This document shows positions 3,692-22,146 of a stretch of 64,000 nucleotides of DNA, piece after piece. A program made the position numbers and the translations under genes. The stretch lies in the NCBI RefSeq assembly GCF_055900595.2, contig NZ_CM148325.1; one strand, written 5' to 3'. The notes beneath the pieces are model-generated. The model did not search any database. It was not told the DNA's origin and saw nothing but the letters and a program-made list of their open reading frames with translations. How positions within the stretch are numbered: the first letter of the stretch is position 1; each line of letters opens with the position of its first letter.

Positions 3692-3699
3692 TTCAAAAT

Positions 3700-3776
3700 T
3701 GGTCGGCGAGAGAGGATTCGAACCTCCGACCCACTGGTCCCAAACCAGTTGCGCTACCAAGCTGCGCTACTCGCCG
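3700..3776 (-). tRNA. proM: tRNA-Pro (anticodon UGG)
   Basis: Reverse complement gives CGGCGAGTAGCGCAGCTTGGTAGCGCAACTGGTTTGGGACCAGTGGGTCGGAGGTTCGAATCCTCTCTCGCCGACCA with cloverleaf and CCA end. Confidence 0.9.
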
Positions 3777-3818
3777 AAATACTGCTTTTTGAATTTTTAG
3801 TTCAATTTTTTAAAGTCG

Positions 3819-3905
3819 TGGTGCGAGGGGGGGGACTTGAACCCCCACGTCCGTAAGGACACTAACACCTGAAGCTAGCGCGTCTACCAATTCCGCCACC
3901 TTCGC
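3819..3905 (-). tRNA. leuT: tRNA-Leu (anticodon CAG), long variable arm
   Basis: Reverse complement gives GCGAAGGTGGCGGAATTGGTAGACGCGCTAGCTTCAGGTGTTAG...CCCCCCCCTCGCACCA, 87 nt. Confidence 0.9.
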
Positions 3906-3925
3906 ATTGTCACAACTTCTAATAA

Positions 3926-4001
3926 TGGGGTGGCTAATGGGATTCGAACCCACGACAACTGGAATCACAATCCAGGGCTCTACCAACTGAGCTATAGCCA
4001 C
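3926..4001 (-). tRNA. hisR: tRNA-His (anticodon GUG)
   Basis: Reverse complement gives GGTGGCTATAGCTCAGTTGGTAGAGCCCTGGATTGTGATTCCAGTTGTCGTGGGTTCGAATCCCATTAGCCACCCCA, including the extra 5' G typical of tRNA-His. Confidence 0.9.
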
Positions 4002-4059
4002 CACTACAAATCTTGTTACGCGGTATTACTACCACCGCAGCTCAAGCGCCGGGACTAAA

Positions 4060-4136
<77 letters not shown>

Positions 4137-4157
4137 TTAGCGCCGTTGCGGGGGTGG

Positions 4158-4200
4158 ATAATACGGACTTCCCACCCCTCTGTCTAGTCCCTTTTTAAAT
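4158..4200 (-). promoter_or_regulatory. candidate promoter of the argX-hisR-leuT-proM operon
   Basis: TATTAT -10-like hexamer (minus strand) followed by a GC-rich discriminator (CCACCCCCGC) about 20 nt upstream of argX; -35 not clear. Confidence 0.35.
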
Positions 4201-4238
4201 AAATTGCGCGTTTGGTTACGGTTTGTGCGTTTTGCTGC

Positions 4239-5624
4239 TTATTCCTCCAGTTTATGCGCTTTACCGTGGCGATTAAGCCCAAAAACTTTATAAATTGCCG
4301 TCACCGCCAGCATAAAGATGATACCGACAAACAGCGACATACGCGTATCTTCATTAAAGTACATGCCGATCAAAACGCAAATCAGGAATGCCATTGTTAC
4401 GTAGTTGGCCCACGGGAACAGGATTGAGCGGAACGGATGGCTGGCAATCGCCGCTTTGTGCGCTCGACGAAAACGCAACTGGCTAATCAAAATCACAAAC
4501 CATGGCACCATCCCCGGAAGCACGCTGGCACTGTAGACATAGACAAACACACGCTGTGGATTGGGAATGATGTAGTTCAGGCATGAGCCAATTAACAGAA
4601 TAGCAATTGATACCGCCACGCCTGCAACCGGAACACCTTGACGGGAAACTTTCGCCATTGCCGCCGGTAACTGACGGTTTTTCGCCAGTGCGTAGAGCAT
4701 ACGTCCACAACTGTACATGCCGCTGTTACAGCCAGAGAGCGCAGCCGTCAGTACCACAAAGTTGATAATACCCGCCGCTGCAGTAATGCCGATTTTGGCG
4801 AAAGTCAGTACGAACGGGCTGCCGTTACTGCCTATTTCATTCCACGGGAAGATGGTGACGATAACGAAAATCGCGCCTACGTAGAAAATCAGGATACGCC
4901 ACAGCACCTTGCCTACGGCACTGCGCAGCGTCACCTGCGGATTCTTCGCTTCACCGGCAGTAATGCCAATCAGCTCCACGCCCTGGTAGGACGCCACCAC
5001 AATACACAATGCGGTCAGGAACCCTTTCCAGCCACCCGCAAAGAAACCGCCATGCTCTGTGAGATTGCTAAAACCAATCGACTGCCCGCCATTGCCAAAG
5101 CCAAAGAAAATCACGCCCAGGCCAATAACAATCATCACGATAATCGTGGTGACTTTGATCATCGCGAACCAGAACTCGATTTCGCCGTACAACCGCACTG
5201 CCGCCAGATTCGCCAGCGCCACCAGCGCCACCGCGATCAATGCGGGTATCCACTGCGCCATCTCCGGGAACCAGAACTGGACATAAACGCCAATGGCGGT
5301 GATTTCTGAGATCCCCACCGCCATCCACATAAACCAGTAAGACCAGGCGGTGAGATAGCCAAAAAACGGGCTCATATAACGATGCGCATAAACGGCGAAC
5401 GAACCGGTAACCGGTTCGAGGAACAACATTTCGCCCATTGAACGCATGATGAAAAAGACAAACAGCCCGGCGATGATATAGGCCAACAATACGGATGGCC
5501 CGGCCCATTTCAGGGTACTGGCGGCCCCCATAAACAGGCCGACGCCAATGGTGCCCCCCAGGGCGATGAGTTCGATATGTCGAGCTTCCAGCCCACGCTG
5601 TAGCTCTGGTTTGTTATCTGCCAT
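4239..5624 (-). CDS. yifK: APC-family amino acid permease
   Basis: 461-aa ORF with 12 predicted hydrophobic segments and amino-acid permease-like sequence; synteny next to the wec cluster. Confidence 0.9.
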
Positions 5625-5814
5625 AAATCCTCGTGTTGTGTTTGCATGCTTTCCGGTGTTACCGGTTATCGTTATGGGTACATCGAGTGTTGCGAATGTT
5701 TTCGTAATTCAGGAGAAATGGCAAATAAAGCATTAAAAATTTGAATGCTTTGTGTAATAAAAAGACAGGCAGGCGACGAAGTGACCACTCCGTCGCTTTA
5801 CAGAGAGAGGAAAA

Positions 5815-6555
5815 TCAGAGGTTGCCGGTGTAATACCAGCGTAAATAACGCAGCAAACGAAGCTGACGCTTAATGCGGCTCGGCTGCGAAAGCAGGCGGT
5901 AGAGCCACTCCAGCCCCAGCGTTTGCCAGATTTTCGGTGCGCGTTTCACGTGACCGGTGAAAACATCGTAAGTCCCGCCAACGCCCATATACAGCGCATC
6001 CGGATGCACCAGACGGCAGTCGCGCATGAAGATCTCCTGCTTTGGCGATCCCATCGCAACGGTGACGATTTGCGCTCCGCTGGCATGAATGCGTTCAAAC
6101 AGCGCCTGACGCTGCTCGGGTTTAAAATAACCATCCTGACTGCCAACGATATTCACATTCCACTGATTGCGCAGTTTAGCTTCAGTTTGCGCCAGCACTT
6201 CAGGTTTACCGCCCACAAGAAATACCGGCGTCCCTTCTTTGCCTGCGCGCGCCATCAGCTCTTCCCAGAGATCGGCCCCGGCAACGCGGGAAACCTGCGC
6301 CTGCGGGTACTTTTTACGTACTGAACGTACAACGCTGATGCCATCAGCATATTTAAATTCGGCAGCATTAATTAACTCCCTGACCTCGGCGTTATCTTCA
6401 ATGGTCAGCATTTTTTCGGCATTAATGGCAACCAGCGTTCCCTGCTTAAGCTGCCCGTCAGCAAACAGATAATCGAGGGCGTGCTGCATATCACGCCAAC
6501 CAATCAACTGTAAGCCACGCAGCGTATAGGTCGGTGCTGTGGTGTTGTTATTCAT
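5815..6555 (-). CDS. wecG: UDP-N-acetyl-D-mannosaminuronic acid transferase (ECA lipid II synthesis)
   Basis: 246-aa ORF, WecG/TagA-family glycosyltransferase; last gene of the wec cluster. Confidence 0.9.
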
Positions 6556-6557
6556 TG

Positions 6558-7910
6558 TTATCCTTCAACCTGCGTCCGGAGCGATGATTTTGTACGTTTA
6601 TGAATGAGTCCGGCGCTTTCAAAAAGCCAGTACAACAGTTTTGCGATCATCAGACATGCGCCGAAGACCACGATAAAAAAGACCACGCGTGAGACAAACG
6701 AATCCAGCCCTTCACGCGCCAGTACGACCATATTGAAGATCGCCCCGAAGCAGAAACTGTGCAATATCGCAGCCTTATAGCGATTAGTTTCGCGATTGCC
6801 CAGTTCATACAGCCAGTCGAACCATTTGATGATCAGTCCAACCACAATCGCCCCGAGTGGGATGAACAACGCGCCGCCCATAACAACCAGTGAGCCTATA
6901 AGCGTAGGCGAGATCGCCAGCCCGGAGTGGTTATTCAGCACTTCCCAGGTAAAGTAGTTGGCGGAGTTCAGTACCATACTCGGGCGACCCGGCCACAGCC
7001 AGGAAGGGATAAAGACATAGAAATCGCGGACAATGGGAGCCAGGCCCTGGAAGTCGATGTTGTCGTAGTTCTGCAACAGCAACGCCAGATTCTCCCACGG
7101 CGAGAAGGTGTCGCGAGTGAGATAGAGAAACGTATAGAACGCTTCATCGCCGCTCACATTCATTCCATAGCGTTTTAGCGCCAGCCAGAACATGCCCACA
7201 ATCCCCAGCACGCCCGCCGCCGCCAGCATCCACAACGAAATCCAGCCGCGAATAATGCCAATAAACAGGAAGATAGCAAATGCGATGATAATATTGGCGC
7301 GAGTGCCGCCGACAATCATGTAAGTCAGCAAGCCAAAGGCGACCGTGCTGACGAGGAAAAACAGCCACGCTTTGCTGTCCTGGCGCAGAAAGTAGACCAC
7401 CAGCATTGCTGGGATGAAAAAGTAAAAGAAGCGCTTTAACGCCACGCCGGAGACTTCACTGGAGAAGATCTGACTGTAGGAGTTAAGACGGAACAGCAAA
7501 AAACCGTTGTGCATGAAGAAGATGCCGACGCTTACCAACGCAATGCCCATCAGGATCACCCACGTGAGATTGGTCTCCACGCGGTTCATGGTAAACAGCG
7601 GACGGCGCGGTACATCAGCAACGCGTTTGCGTAGGCGGGTTTTGTAGGTGACATAGTAAACCGCGTAGAAGCAGCCCGCAGAAAGCAACGCCTGCAACAA
7701 GATTTCTGGCGGCGCAACACCAACATCAAAGCGAAATACCAGCACGCTGGTCAGCGGAAAGCCGAAGAAAAAGGTGAGCAAAAACAGCAATGAAAAGAAG
7801 ACATTGAAGTTAAAGCGCACACGGCGAAACTCAAACCAGGTCAGCGTGGCAATAAACAACGTGCAGAGCAGCCAGACAACAAACAGGCCACTGAATTGCA
7901 GCAGACTCAT
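6558..7910 (-). CDS. wzyE: ECA polysaccharide polymerase
   Basis: 450-aa highly hydrophobic multi-pass membrane ORF in the conserved wec position; 4-nt overlap with wecF. Confidence 0.9.
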
Positions 7911-8986
7911 GCGACCTCCCCGGCGGCAATCGCCAATGCCCGCTGCCAGCCTTGCAGATAGTTCGGGCTAAAGAAGGCAATGGTGTTTTTATCCACCGAC
8001 GCCAGCTGGCGCTGCGCTTCACGCACAATATCCTCGTTGAGATCGTCGGTAGTAAACAGCACCGGCAAATGCTGTTCCGTCATATCCTGCCAGAACGGAT
8101 TTTCCCGGTTAAGCACACAAGGAATACCCGCCTGAATAAGTAAGCACAGCGTACCAATGCCCTGCTGGCGGGCAAAAATAAAGTAACCGAGATCGCACTG
8201 ACGAAGTAGCGTCAGATAGGCGTCAAATTCCAGTTTTTCGCTCAGAACTTGCAGATTTTCTTCGCTGAATAACGCCAGCCCCGCCTGACGAACTTCCTCG
8301 ATGTACGCTTCGTTATTAGGCGGATATCCCATCGGTACAACCACTTTTACAGTATCGCCAAATTGCTGATGAACGGCGCGTAAGGCGGCGACATGCTCAT
8401 TGCTGCGGTCGCCGGAGTTCCCCACCAGAATGGTCATTTTCCCTTCACGTTGGCGATCGTTCGCCATCGTATTGAGAGAAGGGTCCATCCGCGTCGGGAA
8501 GTACAGCAGTTCGCCCCGCACCTTTGGATGCGTTTTGGCAAAAAAACTCAAATCACCGCGGGTGGCAAATACACAGCCGACTCGCTTTTGCGCCAGGCGA
8601 CGCAACGGGTAAAAAAGCTTATATCTCAAGCCACTGGAAAGCTCATACAGGTCTGCCCCCCAGATATGCCAGAAAAACTGGCTGGGCTTAATGCCACCAC
8701 TCAGCAGAGCCAGCCACAGTTTGGGATTGAACTGACCGTGGAAAAAAAATCGCTGCTGACGGTTAGCTTTTGCTTTCGCGATGACCGCTTCCGCCAGCGA
8801 TTTTTTCCCAGGGAAAAATTGCACAGAAAGCGCCGGACAGCTATCACTTAAGCCGTCGTCCTTGCCAACAACCATAAACTCGCGCGCATGCTCGCTCGTC
8901 GCGGCCAGCACGTCGTTGAAAAACCGCAAAACGGTTTGGTTATGGTGAGGGATATCCGATCCCAGTACGTGAATCAGTACAGTCAT
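7907..8986 (-). CDS. wecF: TDP-Fuc4NAc:lipid II Fuc4NAc transferase
   Basis: 359-aa ORF in the conserved wec position; overlaps wzxE stop/start (translational coupling). Confidence 0.9.
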
Positions 8987-10233
8987 GCCCGCCTACGCCA
9001 GAGTAAAAACACGCCACAACAAAGAGAAAAATAGACGATATAGGTTGCCATATAGGCCTGCGCCGCGCCCAGTGCACCATGCGCAGGGATTAGCCAGTGG
9101 GCAAATACCATCAATAAAGTGAACTGGCTGACTTCCGCCAGAATATAAAACCGCAGTGACGCTTTGGCGATCACCAGATAACCAAAGACATAAGCGCCCA
9201 CTTTTAACACATCACCCACTAACTGCCAGGCAAAGAGATCGCGCATAGCGGTAAATTTATTCGACAACAGCAGCCAGATAGCAAAATCACGCAGCAACCA
9301 GACGGTAAAACTCGCCGCCGCCACTGCCGGTAAGACGAATTTCAGCGATTTAACCACTTCCCGGGTGATATCGCGCTTTTCCGTTAGCCGCGACAACGTG
9401 GGCAGTAAATATACGCTGAACGATGCCGTAATAAATTGCAGGTAGGCATCGGAAATACTGCTCACCCCTTGCCAGATACCCACTTCATCCCAGCTATACT
9501 GCGCCGCCAACAGTTTACGCATCATGATGTACGCAACGGGCAAGGTCACCGACGTAATCAACGCCATGAGCGTAAATTTGCTCAACTGCCCTGCCAGGCC
9601 GTTATCCCAGCAGGGTTTCAGATAGCTTAACGGGATGGCACCACGTTTGATCAACATGATGACGGCAGGAATCACCACCAACGCGGGAATCAGCGCCAGC
9701 CCCAGCAATGCCCCTTCATAACCGCCCAAACGGTAACTGACATAATAAGCAATTACGCCAATCAGGCTGCCGACAATCAGCGATAACGCATTACCTGCAG
9801 CATCGCGAAAGCCTTTCATCAGCGCCAGCAACAGGTTGCCCCAGGCGATCCCCATTTGCACCAGCGCCACTAAACGCACCAGCCCCACATAGTCGGTATT
9901 ACCAAACAATCCCTGGCTAATTGGCGCTGCCGCCAGCACAAAAACCAGCGCCATCAGCGTAGAGAAACCAAGCACCATCGCTGATGAAGTGCCGACCACG
10001 CGGCGCAGCTGCTGCGGATTATCATGGTACTGGGCAACGTATTTGGTTACGCCGTTAAAGATGCCTGCACCAGCAAGCACGCCGAGCACGGTAATCAACT
10101 GGCGGAAATTTGCCGCCAGCCCAAGCCCCGCAGGACCAAATGACACCGCCAGCAACTTACCGACTAGTAACCCGGCACCAATCTTGACCAGTGTACTGGC
10201 CGCCGTCCACAAGGACGCTTTTGCCAACGACAT
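8983..10233 (-). CDS. wzxE: ECA lipid III flippase (Wzx family)
   Basis: 416-aa polytopic membrane ORF, Wzx/MOP-type flippase features; synteny. Confidence 0.9.
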
Positions 10234-10234
10234 A

Positions 10235-11365
10235 TCAGGAGAAGTAGTTCAACAAGGTCGCAATTACCGTGCGCTGATTGACGGGCGACAGGTTGTAGAA
10301 CAACGGCAGGCGCAGCAGGCGCTCGCTCTCTTTGGTGGTGTAGCGATCTTCACCGTGGAACTCACCAAAGCGTTCCCCCGCAGGGCAACCGTGCAGCGGA
10401 ATGTAATGGAACACCGCCATGATTTCCGCTTCTTTCAGAAAGTTAATCAACGCGCTCCGGTCATCAATATCCCGCAGTTTAATGTAGAACATATGCGCGT
10501 TCTGCACGCAGCCATCGGGAATCGACGGCAGCTCGATACGCCCGGCTTTCGCCAGAGGTGCTAACGCATCGTAGTAGTTTTGCCACAGCGCCAGACGTTG
10601 CTGATTGATACGATCCGCTGCTTCCAGTTGCGCCCACAGGTACGCAGCTTGCAGATCGGACATCAAATAGCTGGAGCCAATATCGCGCCAGGTATATTTA
10701 TCGACCTGACCACGGAAGAACTGGCTGCGGTTTGTGCCTTTTTCACGGATGATCTCGGCTCGTTCGATTAACGCTTTATCGTTAATCAGCGTCGCGCCGC
10801 CTTCACCGCCCGCCGTGTAGTTTTTGGTTTCATGGAAGCTAAAGCAGCCAATATGACCAATGGTTCCCAGTGCACGCCCTTTATAAGTGGACATCACGCC
10901 CTGAGCGGCATCTTCCACCACAAACAGGTTATACTTTTTCGCCAACGCCATAATGGTGTCCATTTCGCAGGCCACACCCGCGTAATGGACCGGCACGATA
11001 ACGCGCGTTTTGTCGGTGATCGCCGCTTCAATCAGCGTTTCGTCGATGTTCATAGTGTCCGGGCGAACATCCACAAAGACGATTTTCGCGCCACGCAGCA
11101 CAAAGGCATTGGCGGTGGAGACAAAGGTGTAGCTCGGCATGATCACTTCATCGCCAGGCTGGATATCGAGCAGCAGCGCCGCCATCTCCAGAGAAGCGGT
11201 GCAGGACGGCGTCAGTAACACTTTGGCGCTGCCAAAACGTTGCTCCAGCCACTGCTGGCAGCGACGGGTAAAACCGCCATCGCCACACAGTTTGCCGCTA
11301 CCCATTGCCGACTGCATATAGTCGAGTTCGGTTCCCACCACCGGCGGTGCGTTAAATGGAATCAT
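10235..11365 (-). CDS. wecE: dTDP-4-oxo-6-deoxy-D-glucose aminotransferase (PLP-dependent, DegT family)
   Basis: 376-aa ORF with DegT/DnrJ/EryC1 aminotransferase character; synteny. Confidence 0.9.
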   Translation of the reverse strand: MIPFNAPPVVGTELDYMQSAMGSGKLCGDGGFTRRCQQWLEQRFGSAKVLLTPSCTASLEMAALLLDIQPGDEVIMPSYTFVSTANAFVLRGAKIVFVDVRPDTMNIDETLIEAAITDKTRVIVPVHYAGVACEMDTIMALAKKYNLFVVEDAAQGVMSTYKGRALGTIGHIGCFSFHETKNYTAGGEGGATLINDKALIERAEIIREKGTNRSQFFRGQVDKYTWRDIGSSYLMSDLQAAYLWAQLEAADRINQQRLALWQNYYDALAPLAKAGRIELPSIPDGCVQNAHMFYIKLRDIDDRSALINFLKEAEIMAVFHYIPLHGCPAGERFGEFHGEDRYTTKESERLLRLPLFYNLSPVNQRTVIATLLNYFS

Positions 11366-11369
11366 GTGA

Positions 11370-12044
11370 TCACCTGTATAACCAGTACGCGGTGCTTTCT
11401 ACATTCGCACCACTTTGTATGTATCGTTTAAGCGCGGCGGTGTTGCCCATCTGGGTCGCCACCCGCAAAGTTGTTTTACCGCGAGCATACGCCCAGTTTA
11501 GCGCTGTTTGCATCAGCTCAGCACCTGCACCGCGTCCAGCCAGCAGGCCAATTCGCGCATCTGTCGCATTGAGTTCCCGTAAAGAGACATAGCCGCGAAT
11601 ATCGCCGGACGCCGAACGTAAAATGAGGCATTGATGATCAAAGGTGCCGCGCACGGCATTTTCAACCCACTGCGCATAAAAGCGACCGCTGGCGTCAGGC
11701 GCATACCACGGCGCACGAAAACGGCTTTGCGCAAATGCGGCACTGGCTAACTGACGTAATACGGGAATATCTGTCTCTTGTGCCACTTCTGCGCCGCTAT
11801 CACTGACATTGTTCACGGGTAGCGCCAAATCAACTTCACCTTCAACCAGGCAGAATCCCAGCTGTTGCAAGGCATCCAGCTCAACAGTATTTGATGCAGC
11901 AATTTTGGCCTGCACTCGTGACCACGGCGCTAAAGCGTCTGGCGTCAGGAGTGGCGCATCAGGAGTGAGATGCACGATAGCGCTGTTAACGCCAAAGAAG
12001 GCATTTTCCCAGGTTAGTGGTTCAATACTGGCGCGGACGGGCAC
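11370..12044 (-). CDS. wecD: dTDP-fucosamine acetyltransferase (GNAT)
   Basis: 224-aa ORF with GNAT-like C-terminal half; 23-nt overlap with rffH. Confidence 0.85.
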
Positions 12045-12903
12045 GGAGTAACTCCAGCAGATATTGGCCGTAGCCAGTTTTCGCTAATGAACTGGCAGCA
12101 CGCTTCACACCTTCGTCATCGAGCCAGCCGTTACGCCAGGCAATCTCTTCCAGGCAGGCAATCTTAAAGCCCTGGCGTTTTTCCACCGTCTGTACAAAGG
12201 TACTGGCTTCAATCAGGCTGTCGTGTGTGCCGGTGTCCAGCCAGGCAAATCCGCGCCCGAGCAGTTCAACGGTCAGGTTGCCTGCCTCGAGGTACATCTG
12301 GTTGATGGAGGTAATCTCCAGTTCACCACGCTCCGACGGCTTCACCTGCTTTGCGTACTCCACAACTTTACTGTCGTAGAAATAAAGCCCGGTCACCGCC
12401 CAGTTTGATTTTGGCTGTTTTGGCTTTTCTTCCAGAGAGATAGCGCGGAAATTGTCGTCAAACTCCACGACGCCAAAGCGTTCTGGATCCATTACCTGAT
12501 AGCCAAATACCGTCGCCCCTTGCGTGCGCGCCGCAACATGACGCAGCTTCGGACTGAAGCCCTGGCCGAAGAAGATGTTATCGCCCAGCACCAGACAAGA
12601 TGGTTCACCATTAAGGAAGGTTTCACCGATGATAAATGCCTGCGCAAGACCGTCCGGGCTGGGCTGTTCGGCATATTCCAGCTGGATACCGAACTCACTA
12701 CCATCGCCCAGCAGGCGCTGGAAATAACCTTTATCTTCCGGCGTGGTGATGATGAGAATTTCGCGGATACCGGCCAGCATCAGCACCGACAGCGGATAGT
12801 AAATCATTGGCTTATCGTAAATCGGCAACAATTGCTTCGATACGCCGCGCGTAATCGGATGCAATCGGGTGCCGGAACCGCCCGCCAGGATAATACCTTT
12901 CAT
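12022..12903 (-). CDS. rffH: glucose-1-phosphate thymidylyltransferase
   Basis: 293-aa ORF, N-terminal [11 protein letters not shown] nucleotidyltransferase motif. Confidence 0.95.
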
Positions 12904-12921
12904 GTTTGCCTCCGCTGAGAA

Positions 12922-13989
12922 TTAGCCGTTCAGACCTAAACGCTCACCCTGATAGCTGCCGTCCTGCACCTGCTTCCACCAGCTTTCATTAGCCAGATAC
13001 CACTGCACTGTTTTACGCATTCCACTTTCAAAGGTTTCCTGCGGCAGCCAGCCAAGTTCACGGGCAATTTTCGAAGCATCAATGGCATAGCGTAGGTCAT
13101 GCCCTGGACGGTCAGCGACAAAGGTAATCAGATCGCGATAGTGCGCCACACCGTGCGATTTATTCGGGGCCAGTTCTTCCAGCAGCTCGCAGATGGTTTC
13201 CACAACCTCGAGATTCTTACGCTCGTTGTGACCACCAATATTATAGGTTTCACCGACTTTCCCGGTGGTCACCACGCAATACAGCGCGCGGGCATGATCT
13301 TCAACATATAACCAGTCACGGATTTGCTGCCCATTGCCATATACCGGCAGCGGTTTACCCGCCAGCGCGTTGAGGATCATCAGCGGGATCAGTTTTTCCG
13401 GAAAGTGGTAAGGACCGTAGTTATTAGAGCAGTTGGTGATTAACGTCGGCAGGCCGTAGGTCCGCAGCCAGGCGCGCACCAGATGGTCGCTGCTTGCTTT
13501 TGAAGCAGAATAAGGGCTGCTCGGCGAATACGGCGTGGTTTCGGTAAAGAAATCATCTGTGGAATGCAGGTCACCGTATACTTCGTCGGTGGAGATATGA
13601 TGAAAACGGAACGCCGATTTTTTGTCTTCTGCCAGCGCATTCCAGTAAGCCCGCGCCGCTTCAAGCAGTGTATAAGTCCCGACAATGTTGGTTTCGATAA
13701 ACGCTGCCGGGCCGTCAATAGAACGGTCAACATGGCTTTCAGCTGCCAGATGCATAACGCAGTCTGGCTGATGTTCTGTGAAAATGCGCGCCAACTCTGC
13801 CCGATCGCAGATATCAACTTTCTCAAAGGCAAAGCGATCGCTTTGCGCGACTGGTGCCAACGACATCAGGTTTCCGGCGTAGGTCAGCTTATCGACCACC
13901 ACCACCGCATCGTTCGTCTCGTTGATGATATAACGCACCAGCGCCGAGCCAATAAACCCGGCACCGCCTGTTATCAGAATCTTTCTCAT
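12922..13989 (-). CDS. rffG: dTDP-glucose 4,6-dehydratase
   Basis: 355-aa ORF, Rossmann GGAGFIGS motif and SDR catalytic YxxxK; synteny. Confidence 0.95.
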
Positions 13990-15251
13990 TAGCGCCAGAC
14001 TCCTTTGGCATCGACGACATACTGCTGATGGACGTTGTCGCCATTGATAACTTTGAACTGACTATGATCGACCAACATCACCAGCACATCTGCCGTTGCC
14101 AGCGCCTCGTCAAGCTGCGCCAGAGTACAAAGCCCATTCAGTTTGTTCGGCAACTGGTGAATGTTAGGCTCAACAACCAGCGTTTCGCCGCTGTGCCACT
14201 GAGCGATCAATTCAGCGATTTCCATCGCCGGACTTTCGCGCAGGTCATCAATATTCGGTTTAAACGCCAGACCAAAGCAGGCAATTTTCAGCTCACTGGC
14301 GCGTTTATCGGTAGCGGCCAGGCAGTCGGCAACCGCCGCTTTGACCTGATCAATCACCCAGAACGGTTTGTGATCGTTCACTTCGCGCGCGGTACGGATA
14401 AGCCGCGCCTGCTGCGGATTCTGTGCCACGATAAACCACGGATCAACAGCGATGCAGTGGCCGCCCACACCTGGGCCAGGCTGAAGAATATTGACGCGTG
14501 GGTGGCGATTCGCCAGGCGAATCAGTTCCCAGACGTTAATCCCCTGATCGGCACAAATCAGCGACAATTCATTAGCAAAAGCGATATTCACATCGCGGAA
14601 GCTGTTCTCGGTGAGTTTACACATTTCCGCCGTCCGTGAGTTAGTGACGACACACTCACCTTCGAGGAAAATTTTGTACAGTTCGCTGGCACGGGCCGAA
14701 CAAACCGGCGTCATACCACCAATCACGCGATCGTTTTTAATCAGCTCGACCATAACCTGGCCCGGTAACACTCGTTCCGGGCAGTAAGCAATGTTGACGT
14801 CCGCCTGCTCGCCCACCTGCTGTGGGAAAGTCAGGTCCGGACGCATCTCTGCTAACCATTCTGCCATCTTCTCGGTTGAACCCACCGGCGAGGTGGACTC
14901 AAGGATCACCAGCGCGCCTTTTTTCAGCACTGGCGCAATGGAGCGAGCAGCCGATTCAACGTAAGCCATATCAGGCTCATGATCGCCTTTAAACGGCGTG
15001 GGTACAGCAATCAGCCAGGCATCCGCTTCAACCGGCGTCGTGCTCGCTCGTAAAAAACCGCCTTCTACGGCAGTTTTTACTACGCTCGCCAAATCAGGCT
15101 CGACGATATGGATTTCGCCACGATTGATGGTATCAACCGCGTGTTGGTTGATATCAACACCAATCACCTGTTTTTGCCGGGAGGCAAACGCTGCCGCCGT
15201 TGGCAGTCCAATGTAACCCAGTCCAATGACAGAAATGGTCGCAAAACTCAT
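13989..15251 (-). CDS. wecC: UDP-N-acetyl-D-mannosamine dehydrogenase
   Basis: 420-aa ORF, N-terminal NAD-binding GLGYIGLP motif, UDP-sugar dehydrogenase family. Confidence 0.95.
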
Positions 15252-16378
15252 AGTGATATCCGATTATTTTTTAACGCTTCCAGAATGCGAGAGCATGCCT
15301 GACCATCACCATACGGGTTATGGGCGCGGCTCATGGTTTGATATTCGTTTTCGTCTTTTAAAAGACGCGTCACTTCCTCGACGATTCGCTGCTTATCCGT
15401 GCCGACCAGACGTACCGTACCCGCCTTCACTGCTTCCGGACGTTCAGTGGTTTCACGCATCACCAGCACTGGTTTCCCCAGCGAAGGCGCTTCCTCCTGA
15501 ATGCCACCTGAATCGGTCAAAATCAGCCAGGCGTGGTTCATCAGCCAGACAAACGGTAAATACTCCTGGGGATCGATCAGAATGACATTTTTCACGTGCC
15601 CCAGAATGCGATTGACCGGCTCTCTGACGTTCGGGTTGAGATGCACCGGATAGACAATCTGAATGTCCTGGTGAGTGGTGGCGATGTCTGCCAGCGCATG
15701 GCAGATTTCTTCAAAGCCACGACCAAAACTCTCACGTCTGTGACCGGTCACCAGAATCATTTTTTTATCAGGGTCGATAAACGGATAATTTGCCGCCAGT
15801 TCTGAACGCAGCGTATCGCTGCTCATCACCTGGTCACGCACCCATAACAGTGCATCAATAACGGTATTACCGGTAATGAAGATTCGGCTGTCAGCAACGT
15901 TTTCACGCAGCAAGTTTTGCCGGGAAGTTTCGGTTGGAGAGAAGTGATACATCGCCAGATGCCCGGTCAATGTACGGTTAGCCTCTTCCGGCCACGGCGA
16001 ATAGAGATCGCCCGTGCGCAGACCAGCCTCAACGTGACCAACAGGAATACGCTGATAAAACGCCGCCAGGCTGGTTGCCAGCGTCGTCGTCGTATCGCCG
16101 TGAACCAGCACGACGTCTGGTTTGAACTCGGCAAGAATAGGTTTTAGCCCTTCCAGAATCCGACAGGTTATCTCTGTCAGACCCTGTCCTGGCTGCATTA
16201 TGTTGAGATCGTAGTCAGGTACAATGGAAAAGAGTTTCAGCACCTGATCGAGCATCTCCCGATGCTGCGCAGTGACGCAAACTTTAGCCTCAAAAAAAGG
16301 ATCTTTTGCCAACGCATGCACCAACGGCGCCATCTTGATGGCTTCCGGGCGCGTACCAAATACAGTCAGTACTTTCAC
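15248..16378 (-). CDS. wecB: UDP-N-acetylglucosamine 2-epimerase
   Basis: Epimerase-family ORF; the track ORF (390 aa) is N-extended, start placed at GTG giving [20 protein letters not shown] (376 aa) as in K-12. Confidence 0.9.
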
Positions 16379-16433
16379 ATCGATTCTCTTCGAATAAGCG
16401 GCGAGCGCCTTTGCGCTCACCGCAGCAGTGTTG

Positions 16434-17480
16434 CTATTTCGAGCAACGGCGGGTTAATGCGACACCAGCCCCGATCAGCCCCCCGACAATGCCCCACATA
16501 ATCATCAGGAAGGCACGACGTGGGCTATCGCGTTTTACCGGTTCTTCCGGCGTACGCAAATAGCGATAGGTCTGAAAACGCGGATCCAGGGTTGGACCAA
16601 CATTCAGGGTGTTTAACATGGCCCGATTCTGATCATAGTCGAGATCAAAGGCCGGACCGACGGCCTGTAAATTTTCCAGTCGCGCCTGGAGCATTGGACG
16701 CCCAAGCAGGAACATTTCTGAATCAGGTAGTTCCTCGGCAGGTACATCTGTCGCACTGCGCGAAATATTATGCTGCTCAGCAATTTTCAGCGCCTGTTCA
16801 ATGCTGTTCATCCGGCGGTCGTAGATGGCTTTCGCCACTTCTTCCTGACGCTTCACCTGAGCTTTCATCTGGATGGTACGCGCCGCCCATGCGCCTTTCA
16901 GCTCATCATTCAGATGGCTGGCTGCTCGTTGGCTGGCAAACGCAACATACTGACGTAACAGGTTATTAGCGTCAGGCGCGGTTTCGGCAATCAGCTTAAC
17001 GCTATCATTGACCGCACGCGTGAAGTCACCGGGAATAAACACGATGTTGTTAATCATTTCATCCAGCAACGCCGCATCGGCTTTGCTGTTCCCGACCATC
17101 CGCTGTTTGTAATAGTCTGTCTGCAACCAGAAATCGCGGCGGGTATCCCACGAGGCCAGTTGCATAACAAACTCTTTATAGGCTTCATCCATGACCGATG
17201 GTTGGTCGGCAGAAGCCATGTTCGAACGGACGTCCAGGTTACGCAAAAATTGCTGCTGCGAGTAGTATCCTCCCAGCATATTCACTGTTGGACGATCGGT
17301 AATCGCCGTCGAGCTCCACTCCTGACGAGCAAAAAAAGTATACGCCAGCGCGATTAACGCAAACGCCAGCCCCATGCCAATAATCCACAGCTTCCCAGCC
17401 CACAAGGTACGAAACAACCCACGAATATCCAGTTCATTTTCAGCGTCTTCGGCCGGTTTCCCAGGCATTGGTTGTGTCAT
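16434..17480 (-). CDS. wzzE: ECA polysaccharide chain-length regulator (Wzz family)
   Basis: 348-aa ORF with N- and C-terminal TM segments flanking a coiled periplasmic domain. Confidence 0.9.
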
Positions 17481-17491
17481 CACATCCTCAT

Positions 17492-18595
17492 TTATTTGGT
17501 TAAATTGGGGCTGCCACCACGATTTCTACGCAGTCTGCGTTTTACGCGCTTAATAAAGCGAGCAACTTTCCAGGCACGCTTAATGCAATATCCATAGAGG
17601 AAGAATGCTAGCAAAAAGAGCACCAGCATGACCCATTCCGGGACAAAATGAGAGTATTCTGCCAGCACGCCAATTGAGGCGAGCAGTGCTGCGGCAAGGG
17701 TAATCAGCACAAACGCCTGGCGGGAAGTAAACCCGGCACGCATGATCAAATGGTGAATATGCTGACGGTCAGGAGAGAATGGGCTCATGCCTTTACGCAG
17801 GCGACGGTACATAATTGCCACCATATCCATTAGCGGAATGGCGATAATCCATAATGCAGTAACCGGGCTTATTGGGTGCGTTTTTCCCTGAGTCGTTTCG
17901 AGCAGGATCCAGATAACGGTAAAACCAATCAGCGTACTGCCCGCATCACCCATAAAGACTTTGTAGCGGCGACCCAGGATACCAAGGTTGAGCATGATAT
18001 AGGGCAGGATGGCGGCGATCATCGCAAAGCACCAGATAGCGAGGCTGGTTTGCCCGTCGAACCACAAAATCATACCGATTGCTGCAAACGAGACGCAGGA
18101 CAACCCGCCCAGCAAGCCATCAATGCCATCAACCATGTTGAAAGCATTAATTGCCGCCCAGACGGCAAATAGCGTCAGGAAGTAGCCAAACGGTCCGAGC
18201 ACCATCTCCCAGGAGCCAAAGATATAACCCAGGCTACTGAGATAAAGTTTGCCGAACACCATCATAACAATGCCAACAGCGGCCTGTATGGTGGCACGGA
18301 TTTTTACGCTGATATCAAAACGGTCATCCAGCGCACCGATGAACACAAGCACACCGGCACAAGCGAGATAGAGAGATGCATGCGGAATATAATAATCGAC
18401 AATTCCGAACGTGAAGCAAATCCCTGCGTAAACCGAAATACCCCCAACGAGAGGTATCAATCCCTGGTGACGTTTGCGGAAGTTAGGTTTATCCACTAAA
18501 CCGACTTTTTTTGCTACCTTTCGGGCAAAAAACAGAAACAGTGTCGTGAATAAAAAAATACTGATGAGATCAGTACTCACTGTCAGTAAATTCAC
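17492..18595 (-). CDS. wecA: UDP-GlcNAc:undecaprenyl-phosphate GlcNAc-1-phosphate transferase
   Basis: 367-aa polytopic membrane ORF of the MraY/WecA family; first gene of the wec cluster. Confidence 0.95.
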   Translation of the reverse strand: MNLLTVSTDLISIFLFTTLFLFFARKVAKKVGLVDKPNFRKRHQGLIPLVGGISVYAGICFTFGIVDYYIPHASLYLACAGVLVFIGALDDRFDISVKIRATIQAAVGIVMMVFGKLYLSSLGYIFGSWEMVLGPFGYFLTLFAVWAAINAFNMVDGIDGLLGGLSCVSFAAIGMILWFDGQTSLAIWCFAMIAAILPYIMLNLGILGRRYKVFMGDAGSTLIGFTVIWILLETTQGKTHPISPVTALWIIAIPLMDMVAIMYRRLRKGMSPFSPDRQHIHHLIMRAGFTSRQAFVLITLAAALLASIGVLAEYSHFVPEWVMLVLFLLAFFLYGYCIKRAWKVARFIKRVKRRLRRNRGGSPNLTK

Positions 18596-18789
18596 AATGC
18601 ATGCTCTCAGAGAAAATTATTAGCAGAAGTATAACCACGAAGACCTTTATTCAGAAGGGAAAGTCCGTTCCGAACCCACCAGTCCTGTGCAAAAATTAAT
18701 CATTCGATATGCAAATTGCATAACACACGAGCAAAACCCAGGAATTTTCCTAACATTGCCAGTGCGGCAATAAGATTACAGATATAAAA

Positions 18790-18820
18790 GCAAAACGCCA
18801 CGTAAACACGTGGCGTTTTT
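18790..18820. terminator. bidirectional rho-independent terminator between rho and the wec promoter region
   Basis: Perfect hairpin acgccacgt-aaac-acgtggcgt flanked by A-run and T-run (caaaacgccacgtaaacacgtggcgttttt). Confidence 0.7.
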
Positions 18821-18834
18821 GGCATAAGACAAAT

Positions 18835-20094
18835 TTATGAGCGCTTCATCATTTCGAAGAAATCGTCATTGGTCTTGGTCATCGCCAGTTTATTAATGAG
18901 GAACTCCATGGCATCGATTTCGCCCATCGGGTGAATGATTTTGCGCAGGATCCACATTTTCTGCAGCTCTTCCTGAGTAGTGAGCAGCTCTTCTTTACGG
19001 GTACCGGAACGGTTGTAGTCGATTGCCGGGAAGACGCGTTTTTCAGCGATCTTACGAGAGAGGTGCAGTTCCATGTTGCCTGTACCTTTAAACTCTTCGT
19101 AGATAACTTCGTCCATCTTGGAACCGGTATCGATAAGCGCGGTAGCGATGATGGTCAGGCTGCCGCCCTCTTCCACATTACGCGCCGCACCGAAGAAGCG
19201 TTTCGGGCGATGCAGGGCGTTGGCATCCACACCACCGGTCAGCACTTTACCTGACGCCGGAACAACGGTGTTGTAAGCACGCGCCAAACGAGTGATGGAG
19301 TCGAGCAGAATGATAACGTCTTTCTTGTGCTCAACCAGGCGTTTCGCCTTCTCGATCACCATTTCCGCAACCTGAACGTGGCGAGATGCGGGTTCGTCAA
19401 AGGTGGAAGCAACAACTTCACCTTTTACCAGACGCTGCATCTCGGTGACTTCTTCCGGACGTTCGTCAATCAGCAGAACCATCAGCACACAATCCGGGTG
19501 GTTGTAAGCAATGCTCTGAGCAATGTTCTGCAGCAGCATGGTTTTACCGGCTTTCGGCGGTGCCACAATCAGACCACGCTGACCACGACCGATAGGTGAT
19601 GCCAGATCCAGTACGCGAGCGGTTAAATCTTCAGTAGAACCGTTACCACGTTCCATGCGCAGACGAGAGTTTGCGTGCAGCGGGGTTAAGTTCTCAAAGA
19701 GGATTTTGTTGCGGGCGTTTTCAGGTTTGTCGAAGTTAACTTCGTTAACTTTCAGCAGCGCAAAATAGCGTTCACCTTCTTTCGGCGGGCGAATCTTACC
19801 AGAGATGGTATCACCAGTGCGGAGGTTGAAACGGCGGATTTGGCTAGGAGAAACGTAGATGTCATCAGGACCGGCGAGGTAGGAGCTGTCTGCGGAACGG
19901 AGGAAACCAAATCCATCCTGCAATATCTCCAGTACGCCATCACCAAAGATATCTTCGCCACTCTTTGCGTGCTGCTTCAGGATGGCAAAAATAATGTCCT
20001 GCTTACGCATACGAGCCAGGTTTTCCAGCCCCATATTTTCGCCGAGAGTGATCAGCTCAGAAACCGGCGTATTCTTTAATTCGGTAAGATTCAT
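18835..20094 (-). CDS. rho: transcription termination factor Rho
   Basis: Translation matches Rho ([33 protein letters not shown]..., Walker [11 protein letters not shown]); the track ORF (443 aa) is extended 24 codons upstream of the true start. Confidence 0.97.
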
Positions 20095-20178
20095 AGTGGT
20101 GTGAGTTCTTAAACTTGGGGTAAATCTCGAACTTAATGTTGTGAATGGTATGGCAGGATCATCCATGCCTGTTTACGG

Positions 20179-20280
20179 TCATCGACTCATGTCTTTTCGC
20201 TGCCTGGTCACAGGAGAGTACGCAGAACTGAAACGACAAGACGGATTGAGTGACGAGCCAGAAATCTGTTCACTTCGCAT
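20179..20280 (-). CDS. rhoL: rho operon leader peptide
   Basis: 33-codon ORF translating to MRSEQISGSSLNPSCRFSSAYSPVTRQRKDMSR upstream of rho. Confidence 0.7.
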   Translation of the reverse strand: MRSEQISGSSLNPSCRFSSAYSPVTRQRKDMSR

Positions 20281-20420
20281 TTAAGATAAAACGGGAAGCG
20301 TTGGAAATTACAAGATTCAAACTTAATAAGGTATGTTTAATACGAAGTCAACACTAAGTTAGCATGACTCACGCCGGGCGTCCAGTTTTTAGCGACAGGG
20401 CACCCGAACATGAAATTCCC

Positions 20421-20750
20421 TTACGCCAGGTTAGCGTCGAGGAACTCTTTCAACTGACCTTTAGACAGTGCGCCCACTTTGGTTGCCGCCACTTCACCGT
20501 TTTTGAACAGCAGCAGAGTCGGGATACCACGGATGCCATATTTCGGCGCAGTGCCAGGGTTTTGATCGATGTTCAGTTTTGCAACGGTCAGTTTGCCCTG
20601 ATATTCGTCAGCGATTTCATCCAGAATCGGGGCGATCATTTTGCACGGACCGCACCACTCTGCCCAGAAATCAACGAGGATCGCCCCGTCCGCTTTGAGT
20701 ACATCCGTGTCAAAACTGTCGTCAGTCAGGTGAATAATTTTATCGCTCAT
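20421..20750 (-). CDS. trxA: thioredoxin 1
   Basis: 109-aa product [53 protein letters not shown]... with WCGPC active site; the track ORF is N-extended. Confidence 0.97.
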
Positions 20751-20880
20751 ATATAACTCCACAGGAATAAGCCTGGCGTGTTGGTTTCGTTGTTGGTGTA
20801 ACATTAACCAACTAAAGGTTGACTTTATTTCACCGGATACGCTTTCGTAAAGCAATAGTAAGCTGATATTCTACCACACT

Positions 20881-22146
20881 ATGAGCAAAACACATTTAAC
20901 AGAACAGAAGTTTTCCGACTTCGCCCTGCATCCGAAGGTTGTAGAAGCCCTTGAAAAAAAAGGGTTTCATAACTGTACGCCCATTCAGGCACTGGCCCTT
21001 CCGCTGACGCTGGCGGGTCGTGACGTAGCCGGGCAGGCGCAAACCGGTACCGGGAAAACGATGGCGTTTCTTACGTCAACGTTTCATTATCTTCTCTCTC
21101 ATCCCGCGATTGCCGATCGCAAGGTGAATCAGCCGCGTGCCTTAATTATGGCACCGACGCGTGAACTTGCCGTGCAGATCCACGCCGATGCGGAGCCACT
21201 GGCGCAAGCTACCGGCCTGAAGCTGGGTCTGGCTTACGGTGGTGATGGCTACGACAAACAGCTGAAAGTGCTGGAAAGCGGCGTTGACATACTGATTGGC
21301 ACCACGGGTCGTTTAATTGACTACGCCAAGCAGAACCACATTAACCTCGGTGCCATTCAGGTGGTAGTACTGGACGAAGCCGATCGCATGTACGATCTGG
21401 GCTTTATTAAAGATATCCGCTGGCTGTTCCGCCGTATGCCGCCTGCAAACCAGCGCCTCAACATGCTGTTCTCCGCCACGCTTTCGTACCGGGTACGCGA
21501 ACTGGCATTCGAGCAGATGAACAATGCCGAATATATTGAAGTGGAACCGGAACAGAAAACGGGCCACCGTATAAAAGAAGAGCTTTTCTACCCTTCTAAC
21601 GAAGAAAAAATGCGTTTGCTGCAAACGCTGATTGAAGAAGAATGGCCAGACCGAGCGATTATTTTCGCCAACACCAAACATCGTTGTGAAGAGATCTGGG
21701 GCCACCTGGCAGCAGATGGTCATCGTGTCGGTTTGTTGACAGGCGATGTCGCGCAGAAAAAACGTCTGCGTATCCTTGATGAATTTACCCGTGGCGATCT
21801 GGATATTCTGGTTGCCACCGACGTTGCCGCGCGTGGTTTGCATATTCCGGCAGTGACGCACGTCTTTAACTACGATTTACCCGATGACTGTGAAGATTAC
21901 GTTCACCGTATTGGTCGTACAGGTCGCGCAGGAGCAAGCGGTCACTCTATCAGCCTGGCCTGTGAAGAGTATGCATTGAATTTGCCTGCTATTGAGACCT
22001 ATATTGGTCACTCAATTCCGGTAAGCAAATACAATCCGGACGCATTGATGACCGATCTGCCAAAACCGCTGCGCCTCACACGCCCGCGTACAGGTAATGG
22101 TCCGCGTCGTACTGGCGCTCCGCGTAATCGTCGTCGTTCAGGTTAA
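20881..22146 (+). CDS. rhlB: ATP-dependent RNA helicase RhlB (DEAD-box, degradosome)
   Basis: 421-aa ORF with Q-motif, Walker A (AQTGTGKT), DEAD box (VLDEADRM), SAT and HRIGRTGR motifs and Arg-rich C-terminus. Confidence 0.97.

What the first reader, a model, noticed from the sequence alone, without database searches (positions are those of the whole stretch)
18596..18834. wecA upstream region contains a short perfect inverted repeat and the rho bidirectional terminator
The 239-bp region between rho and wecA carries a strong bidirectional terminator (18790..18820) and, further toward wecA, the inverted repeat atgcaa-a-ttgcat (18707..18719) in an AT-rich stretch. This is the only obvious dyad in the promoter region of the 12-gene ECA cluster and could be a regulator binding site.
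Basis: seen in the sequence. Interest (0 to 1): 0.2.

Follow-up and report, generated by a model that had tools for sequence, protein, structure and literature searches.

The report
rho terminator and wecA promoter palindrome
The gap between the E. coli rho and wecA genes holds rho's conserved terminator hairpin and a small 15-base palindrome found only in Escherichia, which is probably a docking site for a regulator already reported to bind this promoter region, so the finding is ordinary.

Summary
The window is E. coli. rho (18835..20094) and wecA (17492..18595) both lie on the minus strand, 239 bp apart.

**What is there**
- The terminator is real: stem 18792..18819, about -19 kcal/mol, with a stem core invariant in 27 enterobacterial genera.
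- It is "bidirectional" in shape only, because no gene converges on it.
- The dyad is real but lies 2 bp from the stated position. It is a perfect 7-1-7 palindrome, TATGCAA-A-TTGCATA, at 18708..18722, centred 120 bp upstream of the wecA GTG. That is about 80 bp upstream of the only family-wide conserved -10-like element (TATACT, 18628..18633).

**How strong the evidence is**
- About 5% of shuffled regions contain such a dyad by chance.
- It is invariant in 13 Escherichia alleles whose flanks vary (P about 0.012).
- It is absent from 39 non-Escherichia Enterobacteriaceae (about 25 genera) and from a divergent allele carried by 6.4% of E. coli genomes.

**Likely reader**
- Published work shows that PdeL and NsrR bind the wecA promoter region.
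- Each dyad arm is a strong NsrR half-site (11.1 and 10.7 bits).
- The promoter-proximal arm begins an NsrR-like 11-1-11 site at 18695..17.
- The pdeL promoter region carries a TATGCATA palindrome.

**Verdict**
This is probably a lineage-specific, dispensable operator for NsrR or PdeL. Chance is not excluded. Novelty and interest are low.

The parts
18835..20094 (-). rho coding sequence (stop codon TAA at 18835..18837)
   Evidence: ORF list; RefSeq annotation of an identical E. coli locus and of K-12
18782..18819 (-). Intrinsic (Rho-independent) terminator of the rho transcript: stem 18819..18808 / 18803..18792, loop 18807..18804, then TTTTGCTTTT
   Evidence: Terminator scan, inverted repeat I1, RNA fold -18.9 kcal/mol with z -4.85; stem core invariant in 27 genera, two pairs with compensatory changes
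18708..18722 (.). Perfect 7-1-7 palindrome TATGCAA-A-TTGCATA, centred 120 bp upstream of the wecA GTG; candidate operator
   Evidence: Invariant in 13 main-allele Escherichia sequences. Absent from other genera and from the divergent E. coli allele. Arms score 11.1 and 10.7 bits against an NsrR half-site matrix
18695..18717 (-). NsrR-like 11-1-11 site (AATTTGCATAT-C-GAATGATTAAT), whose first half is the promoter-proximal arm of the palindrome
   Evidence: The 23-mer matrix scores 10.1 (window), 12.7 (K-12), 14.3 (E. albertii), 16.7 (Escherichia sp. MOD1) and 8.9 (CFT073). The weakest training site scores 12.2. 2.8% of shuffled K-12 regions reach 12.7
18740..18751 (.). Second, weaker dyad AGGAA-tt-TTCCT (5-2-5), upstream of the main palindrome
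   Evidence: nearly invariant in main alleles (one substitution in two of 13); untested alternative docking site, for example for PdeL
18685..18703 (-). Block conserved across the family just downstream of the palindrome (E. coli TGGTTAATTTTTGCACA; other genera TTGATTGAAAAATATACAAA); function unknown
   Evidence: Family alignment
18628..18656 (-). Best sigma-70 promoter candidate for wecA: -35-like TTCTGA (18656..18651), 17-bp spacer, -10 TATACT (18633..18628)
   Evidence: Own consensus scan, 8 of 12 matches. GGTTATACTTC is nearly invariant across about 40 species. The tool's stricter scan found no promoter on this strand. No start-site data could be retrieved
17492..18595 (-). wecA coding sequence (GTG start at 18595..18593), first of the 12 ECA genes

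Best explanation
The interval has two ordinary parts.

(1) rho's own intrinsic terminator. This is shown: a GC-rich hairpin plus U-run, conserved across Enterobacteriaceae, which ends the rho transcript before the ECA operon.

(2) The distal part of the wecA promoter region. The 15-bp palindrome here is most likely an operator for a dimeric helix-turn-helix regulator. This is inferred.
- The leading candidate is the NO-sensing Rrf2-family repressor NsrR. Each arm reads as an NsrR 11-bp half-site (AAnTTGCATAn). The promoter-proximal arm begins an 11-1-11 NsrR-like site at 18695..18717.
- The second candidate is the LuxR-type regulator and c-di-GMP phosphodiesterase PdeL, which represses the wec operon and binds a fragment of this region in vitro.

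Bound protein would modulate, not switch, transcription from upstream start sites or by contact with the proximal promoter about 80 bp downstream.

The element arose within Escherichia and is dispensable.

My sub-estimates: any regulator site about 0.65-0.7; NsrR about 0.3; PdeL about 0.2-0.25; another regulator about 0.15. The confidence given below is for 'NsrR and/or PdeL operator'.
For: Terminator.

Operator:
- The palindrome is perfect 7-1-7.
- All 15 columns are invariant in 13 main-allele Escherichia sequences, including E. albertii and a cryptic-clade Escherichia. In the same central region 30 of 124 columns vary. P = 0.012 for these pre-specified columns. The longest invariant run (20 columns, -130..-111) sits exactly on the dyad.

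NsrR:
- The matrix was built from the 26 distinct 11-1-11 sites listed in PMC5320621.
- The arms score 11.1 and 10.7 bits, above the median of real half-sites (10.1), and fall in the top 0.01% of 11-mers in the window. The next-best hits from -239 to +400 are the adjoining second half of this same 23-mer (7.8 and 6.5) and, elsewhere, at most about 5.
- The 23-mer reaches 12.7-16.7 bits in K-12, E. albertii and Escherichia sp. MOD1.
- rfe/wecA is an NsrR ChIP target in both K-12 and CFT073.

PdeL:
- ChIP-seq peak at the wecA promoter, SPR KD 83 nM on one of five promoter fragments, and repression shown by reporter (PMC8669472).
- The pdeL upstream region carries a TATGCATA palindrome and shares the 8-mer GTTATGCA with the dyad's distal (rho-side) arm and the two bases before it.

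RNA-level readings are weak: the dyad hairpin has z -1.3.
Against: - 5-7% of shuffles contain an equal palindrome.
- 16% of shuffled regions reach the half-site score, because the NsrR matrix and this region are both AT-rich.
- The dyad does not fit the canonical NsrR 11-1-11 register. Its ATGCA cores are 4 bp too close.
- The window's own 23-mer scores only 10.1, below every training site.
- The CFT073 NsrR ChIP-seq summit (4468281) lies 201 bp inside wecA, about 320 bp from the dyad. It is weak (2.7-fold) and was reported without a motif.
- The review cites a report that GSNO lowers rfe mRNA, the opposite of relief from NsrR repression (PMC12212991).
- None of the other seven PdeL ChIP targets has a dyad-like site. 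No shared motif rose above shuffled controls.
- The exact PdeL and NsrR sites of PMC8669472 appear only in a figure that I could not read.
- The dyad is absent from every other genus sampled, although NsrR is, from general knowledge, widespread in the family. It is also absent from 346 of 5425 E. coli genomes.
- It lies far upstream of the best promoter candidate.
Confidence: 0.45

Rival explanations
1. Chance palindrome with no function. An AT-rich, fast-evolving spacer between a terminator and a promoter happens to contain a 15-bp palindrome. Its invariance in the sampled Escherichia alleles reflects few haplotypes and clustered polymorphism.
For: 5-7% of shuffles give an equal dyad, and such dyads occur at about 0.6-0.8 per kb in the window. 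There is no conservation outside Escherichia, and the dyad is replaced wholesale in 6.4% of E. coli that keep an identical WecA protein. No promoter-like site overlaps it. The longest-run test is only P = 0.07.
Against: All 15 pre-specified columns are invariant while 24% of neighbouring columns vary (P = 0.012). The dyad coincides with the best NsrR-matrix hits at a locus that is an NsrR ChIP target. Two regulators are known to bind this 239-bp region.
Confidence: 0.27
2. Operator for PdeL rather than NsrR. A PdeL dimer or tetramer binds the palindrome and represses the wec operon when c-di-GMP is low, which limits the UDP-ManNAc supply for the phage N4 receptor glycan.
For: PdeL binding and repression at the wecA promoter are published. 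LuxR-type helix-turn-helix dimers typically read short palindromes (general knowledge). The pdeL upstream region has TATGCATA, shares GTTATGCA, and has an imperfect palindrome GATGTTATACGTATGGCATC that matches K-12 wecA at 15 of 24 positions across the dyad.
Against: Similarities of that strength between the two regions are at chance level: 21 hits at 14-mers with 3 mismatches. The spacing of the TATGCA halves differs (0 versus 3 bp). The K-12 'GCATG' flank is polymorphic, GTGTG in the window. The other PdeL ChIP targets lack the motif. PMC8669472 places the PdeL site upstream of the NsrR site. That fits PdeL at the AGGAAAATTCCT dyad (18740..18751) equally well.
Confidence: 0.22
3. Operator for some other regulator not yet linked to wecA, for example a protein that reads TTGCAT or TATGCA halves. 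CytR octamers (GTTGCATT) and PadR/AphA-type boxes (ATATGCA-N6-TGCATAT) have similar arms.
For: The arms match the CytR octamer at 6 of 8 positions on each strand (octamer recalled from memory). An AphA-box paper surfaced in the sequence search. The dyad is conserved within Escherichia.
Against: The spacing differs from both models. No convincing CRP sites flank it, at best 7 of 10. No experimental link of these regulators to wecA was found. No second copy of the motif occurs in the 64-kb window.
Confidence: 0.12
4. RNA- or peptide-level element: a small hairpin in a long wecA leader or rho read-through transcript, or part of the 41-codon ORF 18700..18825 (-).
For: A 6-bp stem with a 3-nt loop can form. 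An ORF covers the dyad, and an ORF named c4703 is listed between rho and rfe in CFT073.
Against: The hairpin energy is not unusual: z -1.25 and -1.42, with 22-25 of 200 shuffles folding as well. There is no credible Rfam match; the Thr_leader hit has E 0.77. The ORF starts inside the terminator hairpin, has no visible ribosome-binding site, differs in length between alleles (41 versus about 73 codons, read by eye), and is not annotated in K-12.
Confidence: 0.03

Closest known systems
Intrinsic (Rho-independent) terminator downstream of rho in Enterobacteriaceae
   Same: GC-rich 12-bp stem, 4-nt loop, U-run, located 15 nt after the stop codon. Stem core invariant in 27 genera with two compensatory pairs.
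   Different: Nothing unusual. The A-run upstream makes the sequence symmetric in Escherichia, but there is no convergent gene, so the 'bidirectional' label has no demonstrated role.
NsrR operators of E. coli (11-1-11 inverted repeat AAGATGCATTT-N-AAATGCATCTT; single 11-bp half-sites are also proposed to work, Partridge 2009 as cited in PMC5320621)
   Same: Each arm of the dyad is a high-scoring half-site. A 23-mer starting at the promoter-proximal arm resembles weak genuine sites. rfe/wecA is listed as an NsrR ChIP target in two strains.
   Different: The palindrome's own symmetry is not the NsrR symmetry: the halves overlap, with the AA ends inward. The second half of the 23-mer is poor. The site does not overlap a recognisable core promoter. 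The CFT073 ChIP summit is 320 bp away. NsrR-dependent regulation of wecA has not been confirmed (PMC12212991).
PdeL (YahA) binding site in the wecA promoter (Sellner et al. 2021, PMC8669472) and the PdeL boxes CIB/CDB of the pdeL promoter
   Same: Same 239-bp region. A palindromic site is expected for a LuxR-type regulator. The TATGCA half-site is also palindromic upstream of pdeL.
   Different: The published site sequence appears only in a figure, so identity with the dyad is unverified. The paper places PdeL upstream of the NsrR site, which may point to the weaker AGGAA/TTCCT dyad instead.

Membership tests
Intrinsic terminator | Stable GC-rich hairpin directly followed by a U-run on the transcribed strand | tested here: met
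   12-bp stem, -18.9 kcal/mol, z -4.85, followed by UUUUGCUUUU
Intrinsic terminator | Located just downstream of a gene end, and conserved as a structure | tested here: met
   The stem starts 15 nt after the rho stop codon. Nine of 11 pairs are invariant or G-U-tolerant across 27 genera, and two pairs show compensatory changes
Bidirectional terminator | Convergent transcription units on both sides that use the same hairpin | tested here: not met
   rho and wecA are on the same strand. The one plus-strand promoter-like match (18591..18620) is no more than chance gives
Bidirectional terminator | A-run upstream and T-run downstream, so that both strands end in U-runs | tested here: met
   In this window there are AAAA upstream and TTTT(T) downstream. 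The A-run is short in most other genera
NsrR operator | 11-1-11 inverted repeat matching AAGATGCATTT-N-AAATGCATCTT | tested here: inconclusive
   The palindrome itself is out of register. The offset 23-mer at 18695..18717 scores 10.1 (window) to 16.7 bits, against a training minimum of 12.2. 2.8% of shuffles reach the K-12 score
NsrR operator | At least one good 11-bp half-site | tested here: met
   11.1 and 10.7 bits, top 0.01% of window 11-mers, but 16% of shuffled regions do as well
NsrR operator | NsrR occupancy at the site in vivo or in vitro | not testable with these tools
   Literature only: ChIP-chip in K-12 and ChIP-seq in CFT073 list rfe, but the CFT073 summit is +201 inside wecA
NsrR operator | NO-responsive derepression of the target | not testable with these tools
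   The review states that regulation is unconfirmed and that GSNO lowers rfe mRNA
PdeL operator | Direct PdeL binding to the sequence | not testable with these tools
   SPR binding to one of five promoter fragments is published. Fragment coordinates were not retrievable
PdeL operator | Similarity to the PdeL boxes of the pdeL promoter and to the other ChIP targets | tested here: inconclusive
   Shared GTTATGCA and a TATGCATA palindrome upstream of pdeL. No dyad-like site in the seven other targets, and motif support is not above shuffles
Sigma-70 core promoter element | The dyad overlaps a -35 or -10 hexamer pair | tested here: not met
   The only gene-strand candidate in both the window and K-12 alleles is TTCTGA-17-TATACT at 18628..18656. 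The tool's scan found none on this strand
RfaH ops / JUMPStart element | GGCGGTAG in the leader | tested here: not met
   No match with up to 1 mismatch in the region

The most novel reading that the evidence does not exclude
The palindrome is an Escherichia-specific composite operator where the NO sensor NsrR and the c-di-GMP sensor PdeL bind overlapping sites. The PdeL-like left flank would lie at about -133..-113 and the NsrR-like site at -122..-100. The two would compete to set ECA and UDP-ManNAc output, and with it phage N4 sensitivity. The divergent allele in 6.4% of E. coli would then be a natural rewiring that removes this control.
Probability: 0.08. Interest if true: 0.4.

Novelty: already known. 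Interest (0 to 1): 0.12.

Why it matters
ECA-operon transcription is poorly understood, and only PdeL is a confirmed regulator. Pinning a regulator to a defined 15-bp site would give a clean handle for mutating that control. It would also explain why control differs between Escherichia and other enterics, and between the two E. coli alleles. Even so, it would only refine published work: PdeL and NsrR binding to the wecA promoter is already reported. The terminator is a textbook feature.

Tried and rejected
**Rejected or negative**
- Rfam scan of 17400..20900: only the known TrxA thermometer and a spurious Thr_leader hit with E 0.77.
- RNA hairpin reading of the dyad: not unusual.
- Other copies of the motif: none in the 64-kb window beyond chance; among the 94 loci held at that point, only main-allele Escherichia loci carry it.
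- EcaR: published as not binding PwecA.
- Sigma-54: the published site is inside wecA (17610..17626), not in the gap.
- CRP, CytR, RcsAB and ops consensus scans: only weak matches or none.
- NsrR sites at other positions in other genera (site turnover): not seen, apart from two isolated half-site hits.
- Small ORF 18700..18825: rejected. It starts inside the terminator, varies in length between alleles, and is not annotated in K-12.

**Inconclusive**
- De novo motif search across nine PdeL ChIP target regions: best support 7 of 9 for an AT-only word and 6 of 9 for words with at least 3 G/C. Shuffled sets give 5-7.
- pdeL presence across E. coli: 5153 of 5426 genomes. This could not be matched genome by genome to the divergent wecA allele.

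**Not retrievable**
- Transcription start sites: five papers tried. One was not held, one had no supplement text, and three had no entries for this region.
- Partridge 2009 and Reinders 2016 are not held.
- The SPR fragment sequences are not in the supplement of PMC8669472.
- Full-text search for the dyad sequence found no E. coli paper.

Full report
**Identity of the region.** The 239 bases are 100% identical to several E. coli chromosomes and occur once in 5423 of 5426 complete E. coli genomes. On the minus strand, rho (18835..20094) is followed by wecA (17492..18595, GTG start). wecA is the first of the 12 ECA genes, wecA to wecG. All positions below are also given relative to the first base of the wecA GTG (18595 = +1, 18596 = -1).

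**The observation.**
The arms are 18792-18803 and 18808-18819 with a 4-nt loop. Folding gives -18.9 kcal/mol as the rho-strand RNA (z -4.85) and -19.2 on the opposite strand (z -5.44).
- The dyad is real but shifted by two bases. atgcaa-a-ttgcat is at 18709..18721, and it extends to a perfect 7-1-7 palindrome, TATGCAAATTGCATA, at 18708..18722 (-127..-113).
- Two weaker dyads exist. AGGAA-tt-TTCCT lies at 18740..18751. ATTGCC-N5-GGCAAT lies at 18755..18771 and is absent from most other alleles sampled, K-12 included.
- A perfect dyad with arms of at least 7 nt and a spacer of at most 4 nt appears in 5.0-6.7% of dinucleotide shuffles of the region. The 64-kb window contains 54 entries of this kind, about 35-40 distinct sites. 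The palindrome alone is therefore weak evidence.

**The terminator.**
- I aligned the start of the gap from 27 Enterobacteriaceae sequences, about 20 genera. The predicted stem has 11 pairs. The core CGCCACG/CGUGGCG never varies, and the two top pairs show compensatory changes: G-C to A-U, and U-A to C-G.
- The U-run after the stem is universal.
- The A-run before the stem would give the opposite strand its U-run. It has 4-5 A in Escherichia, Citrobacter and Salmonella but mostly 2-3 A elsewhere.
- Both flanking genes are on the same strand. The single plus-strand promoter-like match is what chance gives.
- This is rho's intrinsic terminator. 'Bidirectional' describes its shape, not a shown function.

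**Conservation of the dyad.** One genome per species was sampled with WecA as the query: 80 loci, 41 of them used.
- The gap length is strikingly constant, 237-249 bp in most.
- Three things are conserved family-wide: the terminator, a block at -108..-90, and GGTTATACTTC around -40..-30.
- The dyad is not conserved family-wide. It occurs only in E. coli, E. albertii and Escherichia sp. MOD1.
- E. coli itself has two alleles. 346 of 5425 genomes carry a 227-bp allele, about 80% identical, in which the central part is replaced and the dyad is gone. WecA protein is identical.
- Among 13 main-allele sequences, 30 of the 124 central columns (-185..-62) vary, but none of the 15 dyad columns does (P = 0.012).
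- The longest invariant run, 20 columns at -130..-111, sits exactly on the dyad. P = 0.07 for a run that long occurring anywhere.
- This suggests purifying selection within the genus. It also shows that the element is young and dispensable.

**Position relative to promoters.**
- The tool's scan finds no sigma-70 match on the wecA strand.
- A looser scan gives TTCTGA-17-TATACT, with the -10 at -38..-33 (18628..18633), as the only candidate found in both the window and K-12 alleles. It coincides with the family-wide conserved block.
- The dyad centre lies about 80 bp upstream of that -10.
- Published start sites could not be retrieved. PMC8669472 cites four, from RegulonDB v8.

**What is known to bind here.**
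- Sellner et al. (PMC8669472) found a PdeL ChIP-seq peak at the wecA promoter. SPR gave binding (KD 83 nM) to one of five overlapping promoter fragments. [quoted passage not shown] Reporter assays showed repression.
- NsrR occupancy of rfe/wecA was reported by ChIP-chip in K-12 and by ChIP-seq in CFT073 (PMC5320621).
- In CFT073 the summit (4468281) is 201 bp inside wecA. It is weak (2.7-fold) and was reported without a motif.
- The 2025 review lists NsrR control as unconfirmed and notes that GSNO lowers rfe mRNA.
- EcaR does not bind PwecA.

**Test of NsrR.** I built half-site and 23-mer matrices from the 26 distinct 11-1-11 sites printed in PMC5320621. I scanned -239..+400 in three alleles.
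- The two best half-site hits are the dyad arms: AATTTGCATAT (11.1 bits, -122..-112) and AAATTGCATAA on the other strand (10.7 bits).
- Both exceed the median of real half-sites (10.1) and fall in the top 0.01% of window 11-mers.
- The only other notable hit adjoins them, at -108..-98 (7.8 bits in the window, 6.5 in K-12). It is the second half of the 23-mer described next. Everything else scores about 5 or less.
- The best 23-mer starts at the promoter-proximal arm of the dyad (-122..-100; window 18695..18717). It scores 10.1 (window), 12.7 (K-12), 14.3 (E. albertii), 16.7 (MOD1) and 8.9 (CFT073). The training range is 12.2-31.8.
- Controls temper this. 16% of shuffled gaps reach the half-site score, and 2.8% reach the K-12 23-mer score.
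- The palindrome's own symmetry is not the NsrR symmetry. Its ATGCA cores are 4 bp closer than in the canonical site.
- A second, low-scoring NsrR-like core (AGCATGCATTG, 4.3 bits) lies at -10..0. It could equally be the site annotated in the literature.

**Test of PdeL.**
- The pdeL upstream region contains a TATGCATA palindrome at -438..-431. It shares the 8-mer GTTATGCA with the dyad's distal (rho-side) arm and the two bases before it.
- An imperfect palindrome nearer pdeL, GATGTTATACGTATGGCATC, matches K-12 wecA at 15 of 24 positions across the dyad, by my own count.
- Similarities of this strength between the two regions are common.
- The relevant flank is polymorphic.
- The seven other PdeL ChIP targets have no dyad-like site.
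- A de novo word search did not beat shuffled controls.
- The weaker dyad AGGAAAATTCCT, upstream of the main one, is an equally good guess for the PdeL site, given the published order (PdeL upstream of NsrR).

**Other readings.**
- As RNA, the dyad forms only a 6-bp stem, with z about -1.3.
- Rfam finds nothing relevant.
- A 41-codon ORF (18700..18825) covers the dyad, but it starts inside the terminator hairpin and differs in length between alleles.
- CRP, CytR, RcsAB and ops consensus scans give weak matches or none.
- No second copy of the motif occurs in the window.

**Conclusion.**
- The terminator is a known, conserved feature.
- The palindrome is most likely a lineage-specific operator in the distal wecA promoter region, read by NsrR (about 0.3) or PdeL (about 0.2-0.25). 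Both are already published as binding this region.
- A functionless chance palindrome remains a serious alternative (about 0.27).
- Nothing here departs from known kinds of elements.
- Reading one published figure or running one footprint would settle the question.

Noticed in passing
window 18640..18785 versus L085:301-527 (NZ_CP104665.1): E. coli has two alleles of the central rho-wecA gap. 346 of 5425 complete genomes carry a 227-bp allele, about 80% identical, with a different sequence between TAATCTTAA and about -70. The terminator, the proximal -10 and the WecA protein are unchanged. The pattern looks like an imported recombinant segment.
   Followed up: partly
L086:1700-2520 (NZ_CM132962.1, strain 405): An IS200C copy is inserted in the T-run of the rho terminator, between rho and wecA, on the divergent allele. 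The ECA operon in that strain therefore lies downstream of an insertion sequence.
   Followed up: no
window 18685..18703 (-): A block just downstream of the palindrome is conserved across Enterobacteriaceae (E. coli TGGTTAATTTTTGCACA; Enterobacter, Leclercia and Citrobacter TTGATTGAAAAATATACAAA). It is better conserved than the dyad and unexplained. It may be an upstream promoter element or a site for a family-wide regulator.
   Followed up: no
window 18628..18640 (-): GGTTATACTTC, containing the -10-like TATACT, is nearly invariant in about 40 species. It is the best candidate for the main wecA promoter, although its -35 is poor.
   Followed up: partly
window 20721..20820 (-): Rfam TrxA 5'UTR thermometer (RF02773), 78.8 bits, above the gathering score, upstream of trxA.
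   Followed up: no
window 17610..17626 (-): The published intragenic sigma-54 binding site IS46 (CTGGTGCTCTTTTTGCT; PMC4591121) is present unchanged inside wecA, upstream of wzzE.
   Followed up: partly
window 53035..53054: A perfect 20-bp palindrome, TCAGCGAAACGTTTCGCTGA, the longest zero-spacer palindrome in the window. It has the look of a LacI-family operator. From memory it may be the rbs operator, but I did not check this.
   Followed up: no
window 18700..18825 (-): A 41-codon ORF starts inside the terminator hairpin and runs across the dyad. It is about 73 codons in the K-12 allele and is probably the ORF named c4703 in CFT073. In 13 Escherichia alleles, variable sites fall mostly on its third codon positions (11 of 20, hand count). 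It has no ribosome-binding site and is not annotated in K-12.
   Followed up: partly
CFT073 NC_004431.1 4476183 (from PMC5320621): A second NsrR ChIP-seq peak lies inside the wec operon, within wecE and 259 bp before wzxE. Together with the summit inside wecA, this suggests that NsrR signals here may be weak or non-canonical.
   Followed up: no
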